A DNA stretch of 64,000 bases from Eledone cirrhosa (taxonomy: Eukaryota), in the NCBI GenBank assembly GCA_964016885.1, contig OZ024743.1:106950001-107014000 (forward strand), written 5' to 3'. Positions within the stretch are counted from its first letter, which is position 1; every line of letters begins with the position of its first letter. Made by a program: the position numbers and the translations under genes. Under the pieces are notes generated by a model, which did no database searches, was not told where the DNA came from, and saw nothing but the letters and a program-made list of their open reading frames with translations. Positions 809 through 51,108 of the stretch are shown one piece after another.

Positions 809-2123
809 TTGAAATGGAGGTTTTGCGGTTTTCCTCATATATATATATATATATTTATATATATATATATATATATATATACGAGTGTACAGCGGGGTAC
901 GAGATATAAGTAGCAGATTAGTAGATTATTCGGTCTTGTCTGTATCAGTTTTTAATTTCTCAATAACTGCGTATTCTTATTCCTCTGCCTATTAATATGA
1001 ACACACAATATGCTGGAATTGCATAATTATAAGTTTCAATATTGCATAATTTTGACTATCATCGAACGGCTGTAATAGATATCAGTAATAATAATGTTTA
1101 ATAGACTTTTGTTACTAATAATTCACAAGCAATCATAGATAAGTTCTGTATTTATTAAAATCCGAGCAGGATGTACCTATAAATGATACGCATGTGTGTT
1201 GCAAGATTAACAAGCGAAGCTAAATTACTAAACAAAATGAAATGAAATAAAATAAAATAAGAATTAGACAAAATAACTAGGAAACAAATAGAACATATAA
1301 TGAATATATTTTATGAAAATAAATTGGAAAAAGATTTGCTGAAATCAAATATATTTTGCTATTAGAAATGATTCATTTTCTAGTAGCATTTTATTATTGC
1401 TTAAAAGACCACAGAATTGATCCCAGTGCATTACGAGTTGTCAACAATCCAATGGGAAAGAGTAAACGATCACTTGACCCATTAGAAATAAGGAAAAGAA
1501 TCGATATTTGAGATTTTCCCTTACGAAGCATAAATACGTTTAAAAGAATGCTTGAAATGTAAATAACACGTAAATCTAAACACTGAACAGCGCCCGTGAA
1601 CGTATACAACTCTTGAGACTGCCGAGTGGGTGGAAGGTAAATATTCTCATGCTGATGACATGGTGTGAATGCTTCTAAAAAACAGTTTCCCTACAAGCTG
1701 AAGACCAATTTCATACATATTCTGTAAATTAACAATTGTTTCAAATAATGATTGTGCGTACAATAGGGTTATCGGTAATGTGTTTAAGACTTAGTATATA
1801 TATATATATATATATATATATATATATATATATATATATATATATATACATATATAGCGGCGATGAATTAGTTTTGCGAGGTTTTTTATATGAAATCGTG
1901 TGTCGAAACAGATATTGTTATATTTGGGGAGGGTCATATTTGCGTAATATTGCCAGAATTAATAACAGAACACACTCACTGTTTGGTTGGTTTTCGCTTC
2001 TCGCTGTCTTATATATATATATATCTGCGATCTAACTTACTCGGTCCTCAATGTTGCCATTGACTGACCGGCGGTCAAAAATAATACAGATACAATATAG
2101 ACACAAACACATATATATAGTTT

Positions 2124-2180
2124 ACATAATTTACATAAATCTTTCGTTGCACATCTGCAACATCGTCAGTGGTGTTATAT
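2124..2180 (-). ncRNA. Type I hammerhead ribozyme in the left pLTR arm
   Basis: Reverse complement of the 3842-3898 motif. Confidence 0.65.
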
Positions 2181-2439
2181 TCATTGTTCCTCCTGTTGTG
2201 TTGTATGTCTACGCCATTTTTTTTTTGTTCAGTCTGTCTATATATTTATTTATTTATTTGCTTGTTTGTTTATCTTATTTTATTTTGTCTTCTTTGCGCA
2301 TGCGTTTGCGTGTGTGTATAGTGTTATGTGTGATGTGTGACTAGTGTGTATAGTGTTGTGTCTGCTGGGTGACTAGTGTGTGTTTATGTGCTTGTGTATG
2401 TATTTATTTATCTTATTTTATTTAATTTTATTTACTTAT

Positions 2440-3590
2440 TTATACTTCTCTTAGGTCAGTGTTGTTTGTTTGGGTGTTGTTGTTGTTCCACTCATTCTTT
2501 CTGTTTAGCTTTGGTCTTCTAATTTCTATTTCACTGGCCTCTCTGATTTGCCTATCTGCTGGGTCATTCCTATGTTTAGATATTATTCTAATTTCTATGT
2601 TGTCTATGTTACCGTCATGTTGTTGTCTAGCATGTTCGTATAGTACTGACCCGTGTTTTCGTCCTTTTAGTTCCCCCCAGTGTTGGTCTATCCTTTCACC
2701 TATGCTACGAGCTGTCTCACCTATGTATGTTGTTGTCATGTTTCTGCAAGTACCCTCTGTACATCTTATGCTATAGACTACGTTTCTAGTTTTACAGTTT
2801 ATCCGGTGGTTCACCTTACATATGATACATTTCCTATTGGTACAGTGGGTTTTCTTAAAAGGGTAGGTTTTGCTGATCAGGGATTTTATGGTGGTTCCTG
2901 GCTTTTCTACCACCTTTATTTTTAAGTGGGTCTTTCTCAGGGCCTTTCTACACTGGTTAGCTAATTTCCCTCCAGGGGTGGCGTCCACAAACATGACACT
3001 CTGATATCTCTGGTTGTCGTACCATGATGTGGCCTTCCCTATCTTATGTCTAGCCCTATCTAAGCTATTCCATGATTTGCTCCTGTATAGTGGGCAAATT
3101 CCTTTCATGTCCAGTTCTATGAGGGTCTTATACTTTTCCATGGCTCCTTCGTATACTCTGACTCTGTCTCTTTGGTTGTAGCCAGAGAACTGCATACGGT
3201 TGATGAAGTGTTGGATGTGTCCTTCCATTTCTGTTGGGTCGCACATGCTGGACACATTCTTCATCACTCGTACCAAATCTGCGATCAGAATATTAAACTT
3301 AGCACTACTGGACATTGCTGAGAGTTTTTGAGTATCAGGTATTTGGAGGCCATGGGTTTAGCATAGTGTGAGTGGAGAATTTGGGCTCTCTCGTCTATAG
3401 TGTTAATCCAGAGTTCTGTGTCTAATACAGGTAGTCTATTGTTAGGGTGTTTGGAAGGGAAGTCTATAGTTACAGTTATACTCTGGTGTATGGAATTAGC
3501 TATCTGCTGGATGCTTTCCATCGTGCTACGTTCTAAATCAAACTTGTTAGTGCTCTCTAGTGGGGGTGTTCTTATAACTATATTGATATC
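2440..3590 (-). pseudogene. PLE RT C-terminus plus GIY-YIG endonuclease, 5'-truncated, one frameshift near 3315-3330
   Basis: LPVLDTELW..HYAKP (RT end), SGY, SVMFVDATPGGKLA, CxxxxCxxC linker, VVYSIRC..YIGETARSIGERIDQH, RQIREASEI..PKLN (GIY-YIG motifs). Confidence 0.88.
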
Positions 3591-3841
3591 GATAAAATTA
3601 AATAAAATAAGATAAATAAATACATACACAAGCACATAAACACACACTAGTCACTCAGCAGACACAACACTATACACACTAGTCACACATCACACATAAC
3701 ACTATACACACACGCAAACGCATGCGCAAAGAAGACAAAATAAAATAAGATAAACAAACAAGCAAATAAATAAATAAATATATAGACAGACTGAACAAAA
3801 AAAAATGGCGTATACATACAACACAACAGGAGGAACAATGA

Positions 3842-3898
3842 ATATAACACCACTGACGATGTTGCAGATGTGCAACGAAAGATTTATGTAAATTATGT
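3842..3898 (+). ncRNA. Type I hammerhead ribozyme in the right pLTR arm
   Basis: atataa-cac-ca CTGACGA t gttgca gatg tgcaac GAAA GAT TTA tg-taaa-ttatgt: perfect 6-bp helix II, near-palindromic AGATTT helix III, helix I with an internal loop. Confidence 0.65.
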
Positions 3899-48327: not shown

Positions 48328-48423
48328 GACATATTACAAATGTTTCTCGGGCGACCAGCTCGAGGCTCGATCGATATGGTGATCACACCTGACTCTGAAA
48401 TCAACACAGTCGTCAGATATGTC
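48328..48423 (-). ncRNA. Type I hammerhead with a long (~63 nt) helix II domain
   Basis: gacatat CTGACGA [63 nt] GAA ACATTTGT A atatgtc: perfect 7-bp helix I, GUA triplet; helix II base pairing is unclear. Confidence 0.6.
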
Positions 48424-49378
48424 TCGATTCTACGAAGAAGATTTTTCTATAGTTTTTAGCATCGAATTTCTTGGTTTGTTGATTTAGATCCTGTTGTTGT
48501 CATTCTATGAGTGGTCAAGAATTGTACACGTCACCGGTATTTTTAGCCACTCTTGTGTTCCCACTTCTTGCTTCTTCTCGTTCTCCACCTGTCAATCAAA
48601 ATTTCTTCATGTATCAGAATTACTACTGTGGTGGGAAAGGGGCTGTAATATTGAACGGCTGGCATCACTTCGACGTCTTCATTGCCCCTAGGTGCCTTTG
48701 TCTACATCGGTCAAGTACACACCCGCAATTATGCTGTATGCGGCATTCATACTAAATAATGTTTTGCGGGAATTAAAAAAAAACAAAAAAACATGTAGAT
48801 ATTTAGCGTAACATTTGTAGGACACAGCCTTAGGATACACTCCGCCATACATATTTCAAAAAGAAAAGGGAAAAGAAAAAGAAAGAACCTGTAGCAAGAA
48901 TGTTTTTTTAAAAAACGTTTTTAAAAGAAAGCTTTCAACACCCATTCAAACGGAAGGGCTATATCAAAGGTGTTTTCAACAAATAGACCCAATTCTACAC
49001 ACACACACTGGACTCAGGGGAGCGTGCGTAGCCAAGACGCAGCACTTATATAGTCAGATGAGAAAATCCATGGAAAGTCATCCGTACCCCCACGCATACA
49101 TGCTCCGACAAATACATCGACCCATGTATGCACACACCCGTGTTATTGCATGTCTGTGTGGACACACATACATACACGCACCCGTGTGCTCCCACACCGG
49201 ATGCATATACTTGATGAGTACCCCCATCCGTCTACCCATTCGCCGCTGCGCAGATGGTGCACACAGTATTGTGTGAGACAACGCATTTGAAGCCTTGACC
49301 CAACCTGATCATGTGACGGTGTGAGTCCGAGGGTGCCTGCACAATATGCCTAAATGTTACGGCAGCACAATATCCCTG

Positions 49379-49493
49379 CACTAATCGCATATAGCGTGGG
49401 TGGCACACTAATCGCATATAGCGTGGCTGGCACACACTAATCGCATATAGCGTGGCTGGCACACACTAATCGCATATAGCGTGGGTGGCACAC
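49379..49493. repeat. 26-28-bp minisatellite (about 4 copies), mirrored at 50170-50285
   Basis: cacactaatcgcatatagcgtggstggc units. Confidence 0.9.
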
Positions 49494-50925
49494 ATATAAA
49501 AATAAACCCTGTGTGTACATAACATAAAATCAGGAAATAGTTTACAATAGTAAAATAAAATAAGATGAAATACAATAAAATAAAATGGTGGAAAAAGAGA
49601 ATGCATACATGACAAGGATGCAGAGGGGGACCGGCTATTATCGAGGTGTGCTTAAAGTTTCATACAATAGTTGGGGGCTCTGGTGCAAAAGTTTATATGA
49701 TATACATGGAGGCTGGTGGGCTAAGGCACTGGGTGGGAGCCTGCGCATGATGCAGGTCTCGTTGCTTGCGGATAGATGTGGGCCGTGCGTGCACAAATAA
49801 GTTATATTTATTGTGGTTATGTGTAACATCCATTTCATAAAAGTATATATGAGATGTGCATGGGTTTGGTGCATACATGGAATATAAAGGGTATGTGCTT
49901 CGTAACAATATATATGGAATGCACGTGGAGTGTATGTACTATGAAATGTGCCAGCGGCATGCGTTGTGTGAGTGTGTATATTGGCGGCATGGAACGACAG
50001 ATTTAAAACTAGAAATCAAAATCAAAATAAAATTAAAATTAACATCAACATTACAATTGGCTGCGATATTAACCTCAACACCAGCGTCATGTCAATCATT
50101 CAAGGATATCGGAAGTCAACAAGTAAAAAATTTTAAAGTTTGAAAATTTAAAACCACACGTATGTTTGTACACCACCCACTCTATATGCGATTAGTGTGT
50201 GCCACCCACTCTATATGCGATTAGTGTGTGCCATCCACTCTATATGCGATTAGTGTGTGCCAGCCACACTATATGCGATTAGTGCAGGGATATTGCGCTG
50301 CCGTAACATTAAGGGATATTGTGCAGGCACCCTCGGACTCAGACCACCACGTGATCAGGTTGGGTCATGGCTTCAGATGCGTTGTCTCACTCAATACTGT
50401 GTGCACCATCTGCGCAGCTACCAGTGTGTAGATGTTTATGGTTTTTTAAAAAACGTTCATGCTACAGATTCTTTCCCCTTTTCTTTTTGAAATATGTATG
50501 GCGGAGTGTATCCTAAGGCTGTGTCCTACAAATGTTACGCTAAATATCCCCTTGATTTGTTTTGTTTTTTTTTAATTCCGCAAAACATTATTTATGATGA
50601 ATACCGCATACAGCATAATTGCGGGTGTGTACCTGACTGATGTAGACAAAGGCACCTAGGGGCAATGAAGACGACGAAGTGATGCCAGCCGTTCAAGATT
50701 ACAGCCCCTTTCCCACCACAGTAGTAATTCTGATACATGAAGAAATTTTGATTGACAGGTGGAGAACGAGAAGAAGCAAGAAGTGGGCAACCAAGAGTGG
50801 CTAAAAATACCGGTGACGTGTACAATTCTTGACCACTCATAGAATGATAACAACAGGATCTAAATAAAAAAAACGAAGAAATTCGATGTTAATGGACTAT
50901 AGGAAAATCTGCTTCGTAGAATCGA

Positions 50926-51021
50926 GACGTATCTGACGACTGTGTTGATTTCAGAGTCAGGTGTGATCACCATATCGATCGAGCCTCGAGCTGGTCGCCC
51001 GAGAAACATTTTTAATATGTC
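50926..51021 (+). ncRNA. Mirror copy of the 48328 hammerhead with a GUA to UUA change
   Basis: gacgtat CTGACGA ... GAAACATTTTTA atatgtc. Confidence 0.5.
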
Positions 51022-51108
51022 CAATAAATTCCTTTCGTCGCAACAATTATTCTCTTCTTTCTGTGATATATATATATATATATATATATATATATATATA
51101 TATATATA

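What the first reader, a model, noticed from the sequence alone, without database searches (positions are those of the whole stretch)
1912..51069. Eight fold-back elements of apparently unrelated sequence, each with a hammerhead ribozyme in the same outward polarity
Seen: inverted-repeat structures at 1912-4110, 4310-4773, 4796-5147, 18594-21340, 33018-33656, 37657-38185, 43091-45100 and 48280-51069 each carry a type I HHR motif or relic in or just beyond an arm. It is always on the minus strand on the left and on the plus strand on the right, and the arms look unrelated between loci. Known: PLE pseudo-LTRs carry HHRs and 5'-truncated PLEs often have an inverted pLTR. Inference: one fold-back insertion mechanism is shared by many PLE families here, at a density of about ten HHR loci per 64 kb. 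Read-through transcripts would make the antisense arm first, giving long dsRNA that could mask the ribozyme and be a substrate for ADAR editing or RNAi.
Basis: partly seen in the sequence, partly recalled or inferred. Interest (0 to 1): 0.85.

Follow-up and report, generated by a model that had tools for sequence, protein, structure and literature searches.

The report
Fold-back Penelope insertions with asymmetric ends
These hairpin-shaped repeats are truncated insertions of several Penelope-like jumping-gene families in a head-to-head layout that is already described, and their two arms almost always end at two different fixed points and, where testable, carry the same variants, which likely means both ends of the cut DNA copied the same RNA.

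Summary
Partly confirmed. All eight inverted repeats are real, but only seven are true fold-backs. 4310-4773 is two tail ends of the 4796-5147 family facing inward across (TA)n, and its hammerhead (HHR) belongs to another mini-family. Three elements keep GIY-YIG relics; an intact relative folds like telomerase RT, so these are Penelope-like elements (PLEs). Outward polarity holds in an unselected 800 kb (24 outward, 0 inward, 3 ambiguous). It is the published head-to-head PLE layout, and this scan reported it before in other genomes. HHR-like motifs are far above shuffles (104 vs 0-3), but Rfam finds none in the window, only four of the eight carry a good motif, and cleavage is untested. What I could not find in print: arms pair one long-tailed with one short end (28 of 28 in one young family; 89 of 94 over seven families), share template variants (0 of 161 discordant, 42 expected), and either arm can be the longer. 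Likely mechanism: both DNA ends prime on one RNA at the two known RT start sites. The ADAR/RNAi idea has no data; no A-to-G scar was found.

The parts
1856..2431 (-). E1 left arm: 3' UTR/pLTR with the long end (55-nt tail 1856-1911, which equals the start of the ORF frame); weak HHR-like core 2163-2169
2443..3592 (-). E1 5'-truncated, frameshifted ORF relic (RT end, thumb, CX4CxxC linker, GIY-YIG-type EN); family has open frames of about 1217 aa
3592..4110 (+). E1 right arm, inverted 5'-truncated copy with the short end; weak HHR-like core 3853-3859
4301..4364 (-). Family M arm: type I HHR motif (4317-4355), 5' end at the family's fixed start, short 3' end at (TA)n
4360..4483 (+). Tail-only piece of the E3 family with the long end, joined to the M arm through a 4-5 nt shared word (4360-4364)
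4484..4649 (.).
4650..5147 (.). E3 fold-back: left arm minus with the long end, right arm plus with the short end; HHR cores 4859-4865(-) and 5052-5058(+), each motif with one core change
18601..20993 (-). E4 main copy: ORF relic 19901-20993 (thumb, CxCX5C-like linker across a stop, GIY-YIG Pfam E 1.4e-4, just under the curated cut-off), long AT-rich 3' UTR, left end lost before the HHR
20992..21352 (+). E4 inverted copy with the long end; best-scoring HHR motif of the window (core 21158-21164)
32840..33656 (.). E5 fold-back: left arm minus with the long end and HHR-like variant core 33266-33272 (long stem II); right arm 33444-33656 with the short end and only the 3' half of the motif
37645..38189 (.). 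E6 fold-back with an internal partial repeat; HHR core 38063-38069(+) intact, 37806-37812(-) changed; ends not classified
43094..45146 (.). E7 fold-back: left arm minus with the short end, ORF relic 43732-44349(+) (CX4CxxC, GIY-YIG Pfam E 4e-5), right arm with the long end; U3-A8-type cores 43317-43323(-) and 44865-44871(+) with weak stem I
48203..51069 (.). E8 fold-back without a recognised coding relic: left arm minus with the long end, right arm with the short end, inner inverted pair 49231-49488/50173-50432; HHR cores 48410-48416(-) and 50933-50939(+) with a long (about 60 nt) stem II region

Best explanation
The fold-backs are 5'-truncated insertions of several Penelope-like element families, mostly in (TA)n, joined head to head with one long-tailed and one short end, and they likely form when both ends of the cut target prime reverse transcription on one element RNA at its two start sites. 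In detail: the element's endonuclease would cut both strands of (TA)n (shown in vitro for a lizard PLE, PMC11167929; inferred here). One end would prime at the short site. The other would prime at the long site, in the tail that is still single-stranded, and copy on by displacing the first cDNA (inferred). Each cDNA stops on its own, or runs off at the transcript start in family M (fixed 5' end shown; start site inferred). The two cDNA 3' ends would be joined through 0-5 shared bases or a short filler (junctions shown) and filled in. The hammerhead lies just upstream of the start sites, so it ends up facing outward on both arms as a by-product. Identity as PLE: about 0.95. The one-RNA, two-site mechanism: about 0.5.
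For: PLE identity: GIY-YIG Pfam hits in E4 and E7; intact E1 frame with YVDD, CX4CxxC and C-terminal EN, model pLDDT 90 whose five best Foldseek matches are telomerases; nearest named protein an Octopus vulgaris RT-domain protein, 68%. Polarity: 24 outward, 0 inward, 3 ambiguous of 27 HHR-bearing inverted repeats among 194 in 800 kb (two elements appear in two rows). End rule: 28 of 28 E1 pairs in 40 wide loci are long+short; 89 of 94 outward pairs in 248 loci of seven families; 8 of 10 in the unselected blocks. One template: arms differ at 0 of 161 subfamily sites in E1 (42.5 expected), 6 of 122 in E4 (44.6), 17 of 102 in E8 (33), 46 of 259 in E6 (83); 23 alleles seen only at one locus are in both E1 arms. 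Two separate syntheses: the long-ended arm reaches further 5' in 11 pairs, the short-ended arm in 17 (counted, for tandem extensions). Short site first: 11 of 12 unpaired free E1 ends are short; 12 long arms are tail-only. Junctions: 8 of 16 clean E1 joins share 2 or more bases against 14% by chance. Family M starts 28-30 nt after a TATAAATA in the two copies that extend further. Two RT start sites that bound the tail, cleavage and extension of both strands, and a predicted dimer are published for one PLE (PMC11167929).
Against: Exceptions exist: true long+long outward pairs (L378; two in the unselected blocks), two short+short calls and four inward neighbours, and one inward pair with identical arms (L379). 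In the unselected blocks 8 of 24 unpaired ends are long, so 'short first' is weaker outside young E1. E3, E5 and E7 give no support for one template (7 of 38 vs 11.7; 5 of 16 vs 3.8; 4 of 15 vs 6.1), probably for lack of power. Shared variants show one source, not one molecule. A hairpin shortened later by a central deletion could also leave either arm longer. The M/E3 join in the window has arms from two families. E1 loci were chosen by protein match and nine of them as visible pairs. No intermediate was observed.
Confidence: 0.55

Rival explanations
1. Self-priming or snap-back: one strand (an antisense RNA template, or a long-ended cDNA) folds on itself and is copied back to make the second arm, which stops or is cut at the short site; later central deletions make the arms unequal.
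For: Proposed in PMC3846280 (Discussion) from palindromes at the junction. Explains shared variants and near-perfect M palindromes. A few E1 junctions have small hairpins.
Against: It nests the short arm inside the long one, yet the short arm is longer in 17 of 28 pairs. Unfolded copies should keep the long end, yet 11 of 12 in E1 are short. Some long arms are tail-only.
Confidence: 0.2
2. One multimeric or circular RNA, or a double-stranded DNA intermediate: the two ends use different repeat units of one tandem molecule, or the endonuclease resolves an intermediate with staggered cuts that leave the tail on one side only.
For: PMC8557442 ascribes the tail to endonuclease resolution. Partial tandems precede several E1 copies and agree at the same marker sites. 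Tandem 310-nt HHR arrays also fold back with unequal ends.
Against: The tail ends match RT start sites on RNA in vitro (PMC11167929). Family M fold-backs hold only the first 70-140 nt of the likely transcript on both arms. No test here separates this cleanly from the best explanation.
Confidence: 0.18
3. Two independent RNAs or two independent insertions into one (TA)n, with arms made alike afterwards by gene conversion.
For: The M/E3 join at 4360-4364 has arms of two families. (TA)n runs collect many insertions.
Against: Random orientation would give inward pairs, and independent priming about half long+short. In older families the arms differ as much as unrelated copies (46 vs 49, 31 vs 27, 30 vs 31 mismatches), so conversion is not common.
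Confidence: 0.05
4. Palindromes made by library preparation or assembly.
For: Long-read fold-back chimeras are a known artefact (general knowledge). L379 has 100% identical inverted arms.
Against: Arms differ by 1-12%, end at family-specific sites and abut (TA)n. Contigs of public run X2 show six antisense-to-sense joints of other E1 copies (X2 may be the same sample).
Confidence: 0.02

Closest known systems
Inverted-pLTR insertion units of endonuclease-positive PLEs (PMC3846280; PMC8557442 Fig. 2 legend)
   Same: Inverted 5'-truncated copy at the 5' end, head-to-head, tail often at one end only, (TA)n targeting, Asn-rich inserts in the ORF.
   Different: Here counted: the long+short pairing is near-obligate, the arms share one template, and either arm may be the longer. 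Tails are about 55-180 nt, not 30-40.
PAc, Poseidon element of the green anole (PMC11167929)
   Same: Tail = start of the ORF; HHR upstream of the two 3' ends; AT-rich targets.
   Different: That work shows two start sites and extension of both strands in vitro; in parts 1-2 of 4 that I read, it does not tie them to the two arms of one insertion. E1 and E7 have a Neptune/Nematis-type linker, E4 a Hydra-type one.
Minimal type I hammerheads of PLEs (PMC4209133)
   Same: Short palindromic helix III, extra base before helix II, U3-A8 variant, opposite-strand pairs 100-700 bp apart.
   Different: Several families here have helix II regions of 30-100 nt or a changed position 4. Density is about one per 8 kb, against 2,000-9,000 per genome in that paper (other descriptor).
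Non-LTR retrozymes (PMC7229834; bioRxiv 10.64898/2026.07.22.740005)
   Same: Tandem 310-nt and about 500-nt HHR arrays occur in the sampled blocks.
   Different: The eight window elements are not tandem arrays. Two 310-nt arrays are folded back head to head with unequal ends, like the PLEs.
L1 twin priming (recalled, not read here)
   Same: Both target strands prime on one RNA and the cDNAs are joined by microhomology.
   Different: L1 inverts a different part of the RNA; here the same 3' part is copied twice.

Membership tests
Endonuclease-positive Penelope-like elements | Telomerase-like reverse transcriptase | tested here: met
   E1 family only: model pLDDT 90, top five Foldseek matches are TERTs. 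Pfam RVT_1 was not hit by the E1 protein itself and only below cut-off by relatives. Not tested for the other families.
Endonuclease-positive Penelope-like elements | C-terminal GIY-YIG endonuclease in the same frame | tested here: met
   E7 Pfam E 4e-5, E4 E 1.4e-4 just under cut-off; E1 EN aligns to E7 EN, E 4e-6, and relative P0093 passes Pfam.
Endonuclease-positive Penelope-like elements | pLTRs in partial tandem or inverted arrangement, with an optional tail | tested here: met
   partial tandems in 6 of 40 E1 loci; inverted copies and two 3' ends in seven families.
Endonuclease-positive Penelope-like elements | Autonomous partner for the non-coding families (E3, E5, E6, E8, M) | not tested
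   No coding partner was sought. They are filed as PLE-derived from end structure and HHR only.
Neptune/Nematis clades | CX2-5CxxC linker before the endonuclease | tested here: met
   E1 and E7 each show CX4CxxC; definition from PMC8557442.
Neptune/Nematis clades | Placement in the clade by RT phylogeny | not tested
   No reference set was used; the supplement of PMC8557442 was not opened.
Hydra clade (E4) | CxCX5C linker and (TA)n targeting | tested here: inconclusive
   The motif is seen across a stop in the broken window copy; no intact copy or tree was examined.
Type I hammerhead ribozyme | Conserved core with helices I, II, III | tested here: met
   Met for 4355, 21158, 38063, 48416 by descriptor, 5 vs 0.2 in shuffles. 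Not met for E1 and E7; E3 and E5 borderline.
Type I hammerhead ribozyme | Match to the Rfam hammerhead models | tested here: not met
   No hammerhead among 66 matches at E<=1.
Type I hammerhead ribozyme | Active fold as the most stable structure | tested here: inconclusive
   None of 8 motifs folds as a full hammerhead in the minimum-energy structure, z from -1.4 to 1.3. Published minimal PLE motifs also cleave poorly alone.
Type I hammerhead ribozyme | Self-cleavage | not testable with these tools
   Needs a cleavage assay.
Non-LTR retrozymes | Tandem repeats each with an HHR | tested here: not met
   No window element is a tandem HHR array.

The most novel reading that the evidence does not exclude
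Every PLE fold-back is the footprint of asymmetric double priming: a PLE dimer uses its two RT start sites on one RNA, one per DNA end, and so writes a hairpin with a tail on exactly one side. In this octopod-like genome the process has run across dozens of PLE and retrozyme families and left of the order of 0.2-0.5 million hammerhead motifs, nearly half inside inverted arms.
Probability: 0.45. Interest if true: 0.7.

Novelty: new member of a known kind. Interest (0 to 1): 0.45.

Why it matters
How PLEs make inverted ends and a one-sided tail is an open question, with self-priming (PMC3846280) and endonuclease resolution (PMC8557442) proposed. A young family with many intact frames gives three countable rules (long+short ends, shared template, either arm longer) that any model must meet and that an existing in vitro system can test with marked RNAs. 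The genome also appears very rich in hammerhead motifs and in long inverted repeats, a possible source of dsRNA in a lineage known for heavy RNA editing (general knowledge); no RNA data here support that step.

Tried and rejected
Rfam scan: no hammerhead; only microsatellite-driven miRNA matches. First strict descriptor found only 2 exact-core motifs because it lacked long stem II and palindromic helix III; replaced. tblastx among the elements gave only low-complexity noise in the part shown. Classifying ends by distance to (TA)n was unreliable, since alignments ran through the microsatellite; replaced by family-based classing. Pfam on the intact E1 protein: no hit; PDB sequence searches gave only weak bacterial RT matches; single-sequence fold useless, pLDDT 35. 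RNA data: no RNA holder listed; run X1 gave two contigs, no use for editing. ADAR scar: E1 private A>G 44 per 1694 A against T>C 31 per 849 T; all families 95 vs 107; none seen. L194 and L201 first looked like mixed-family joins; they carry the upstream TATA region of family M. Wide flanks for 20 unpaired long ends could not be fetched; of five checked, two had a short partner, one had none within 4.5 kb, one was long+long, one inward. No host exon was identified in the window, so read-through transcription is unknown.
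Full report
Setting. The window lies at G000:C4:106950001-107014000 in a 3.0-Gb assembly. The nearest named protein to the E1 element is an Octopus vulgaris RT-domain protein at 68%, so the host is likely an octopod. The window is dense in mobile elements and I found no host exon.

Observation. All eight inverted repeats exist. 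E4's arms are only 61 bp. E2 is misread: twelve loci retrieved with its sequence (two of them the window itself) show that 4651-4773 continues into E3 as that family's long tail, and 4360-4483 is another such tail, so these two face inward across (TA)n. The hammerhead at 4317-4355 belongs to a different family, M, whose best genome matches are 98-100% identical and mostly sit in tiny head-to-head palindromes. In the window one M arm is joined to an E3 tail through 4-5 shared bases. Seven true fold-backs remain.

Hammerheads. Rfam found none. A descriptor allowing long helix II and palindromic helix III gave 5 hits at score 18 or more in the window (0.2 in 20 shuffles) and 104 in 800 kb of unselected DNA (0-3 in 4 shuffles). 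Good motifs lie at 4355, 21158, 38063 and 48416. E5 has a variant core on the left only; both E3 motifs carry a core change; E1 and E7 have cores with weak stem I across their families. None of eight motifs folds as a full hammerhead at minimum energy. Published minimal PLE motifs cleave weakly or need protein (PMC4209133; PMC11167929). Activity is untested. 47 of 104 hits lie in inverted arms.

Identity. E1, E4 and E7 keep coding relics ending in a GIY-YIG-type domain. E1 is young: 129 scored matches at 96-100% protein identity, several with frames over 1100 aa. One natural copy encodes 1217 aa with an Asn-rich stretch, a YVDD RT, a CX4CxxC linker and the endonuclease. Its model (pLDDT 90) matches telomerases best. 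By linker motif E1 and E7 are Neptune/Nematis-like and E4 is Hydra-like (definitions in PMC8557442); I built no tree. E3, E5, E6, E8 and M are non-coding here and are filed as PLE-derived from their ends.

Polarity. Of 194 inverted repeats in the 800 kb, 27 carry a motif: 24 outward, 0 inward, 3 ambiguous because the core lies near the computed centre (p 1e-7 for 24:0; two elements appear in two rows). [quoted passage not shown] Seven earlier notes of this scan report the same in other genomes. An inverted repeat has only two possible polarities, so the pattern counts once per element, not once per arm.

End rule. Each family has two 3' ends, short and long, about 55-180 nt apart. In 40 E1 loci with wide flanks, 28 of 28 head-to-head pairs have one long and one short end (nine loci were picked as visible pairs). 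Over seven families and 248 loci, 89 of 94 outward pairs are long+short, 3 long+long, 2 short+short, with 4 inward neighbours. Two of the long+long calls are internal tandem joins that resolves as long+short, and up to three E1 loci repeat a genome place. The unselected blocks give 8 long+short, 2 long+long, 0 short+short, 0 inward. L378 is a true long+long pair. In the window E1, E3, E5, E7 and E8 are all long+short. A tail at one end only is noted in print; I saw no count.

One template. At sites where a minor allele occurs in three or more loci, the arms of one insertion disagree at 0 of 161 in E1 (42.5 expected from other copies), 6 of 122 in E4 (44.6), 17 of 102 in E8 (33) and 46 of 259 in E6 (83). 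E3, E5 and E7 show no clear effect (7 of 38 vs 11.7, 5 of 16 vs 3.8, 4 of 15 vs 6.1) (a first pass gave 1 of 186 vs 48). In those three families arms differ as much as unrelated copies, which argues against routine conversion between arms.

Two syntheses. The long-ended arm reaches further 5' in 11 E1 pairs and the short-ended arm in 17 (counted). Unpaired free E1 ends are short in 11 of 12 loci, but only 16 of 24 in the unselected blocks. Twelve long arms are tail-only; two in E1 stop 11 nt inside the short site, which is suggestive only. Of 27 E1 joins examined, 16 were clean, and 8 of these share 2-5 bases against 14% by chance; the rest have short fillers or were unresolved. Family M arms start at one fixed point 28-30 nt after a TATAAATA (2 of 20 loci extend that far), as expected if cDNAs primed in the first pLTR run off at the transcript start.

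Mechanism. PMC11167929 shows for one PLE that both target strands are cut and extended, that RT starts at two internal sites bounding the tail, and it predicts a dimer. Joining this to the counts, I infer that one DNA end primes at the short site, the other at the long site on the same RNA, displacing the first cDNA, and that the two 3' ends are then joined. This gives outward polarity, one tail, shared variants and free arm lengths. Snap-back with later deletion, and resolution of a multimeric or DNA intermediate, are not excluded. Shared variants prove one source, not one molecule. Searches for this model found nothing (open-licence library only; older subscription papers on Penelope ends were not seen).

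The dsRNA idea. With outward polarity any read-through makes the antisense arm first; that is geometry. Folding predicts loss of stem I in the whole E6 hairpin (0.5-0.7 to 0) and in an M palindrome. The motifs at 4355 and 21158 have no antisense partner in their insertions. No A-to-G excess is seen among copies. Whether any of these loci is transcribed or edited is unknown.

Artefact check. Arms differ by 1-12% and end at family-specific sites. Contigs of run X2 show six antisense-to-sense joints of E1 type (tables 5 and 5c; X2 may be the source sample, and the window's own joint was in a skipped stretch).

Papers seen. PMC8557442: passages, supplements not opened, and they bear on clade names. 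PMC11167929: parts 1-2 of 4. PMC3846280: abstract, passages, Discussion. PMC4209133: parts 1-2 of 4. bioRxiv 10.64898/2026.07.22.740005: part 1 of 5. PMC7229834 and PMC6962438: passages. L1 twin priming, hammerhead numbering and heavy editing in cephalopods are recalled.

Verdict. Real, largely known architecture; new members of a known kind. The added value is the counted end rule and template sharing, which make the open question of PLE insertion testable. Interest 0.45.

Noticed in passing
L193-L212; window 4301-4364: Family M: very young 70-140 bp elements that are little more than a hammerhead motif; most copies are tiny head-to-head palindromes with a fixed 5' end just after a TATA box.
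   Followed up: partly
G000:C9:15006000-15008100 (L353) and G000:C14:15031900-15033600 (L366): Tandem arrays of a 310-nt hammerhead unit (retrozyme-like) folded back head to head with unequal ends, which suggests PLE machinery moves them.
   Followed up: partly
window 4360-4364: Mixed join of an M arm (short end) and an E3-family tail (long end): either two RNAs in one insertion or a later deletion between neighbours.
   Followed up: partly
window 229-275, 760-800, 61440-61508 (all minus): Further hammerhead-like motifs outside the eight items; the one at 800 has the U3-A8 core and its family forms tiny palindromes elsewhere.
   Followed up: no
window 10160-13433 (minus): Broken LINE with AP-endonuclease and RT Pfam hits.
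   Followed up: no
window 22653-25463 (plus): Broken Helitron-like element with a PIF1 helicase hit.
   Followed up: no
window 14917-16335 (plus): Broken non-LTR retrotransposon C-terminal part, by eye of the restriction-endonuclease-like type; no Pfam hit for the one piece scanned.
   Followed up: no
window 17302-17808, 26025, 27236, 31336, 35552, 40135, 42631, 51805, 53433, 61154: About ten copies of a 150-230 bp dispersed, SINE-like repeat in both orientations.
   Followed up: no
L268:1501-5151 (minus): The intact E1 frame has a long Asn-rich stretch before the RT, like the inserts described in rotifer Penelope elements.
   Followed up: no
L261, L263, L265, L285: Several E1 head-to-head joins contain short repeated copies of the adjacent bases, as from repeated priming during end joining.
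   Followed up: no
L379 (G000:C3:329352700-329357500): Inward-facing pair of E4 copies with 100% identical arms that run beyond the fetched stretch; a larger inverted duplication or an assembly error.
   Followed up: partly
window 48915-50441: E8 spacer holds a second inverted pair with short tandem repeats and no recognised coding relic; origin unexplained.
   Followed up: no
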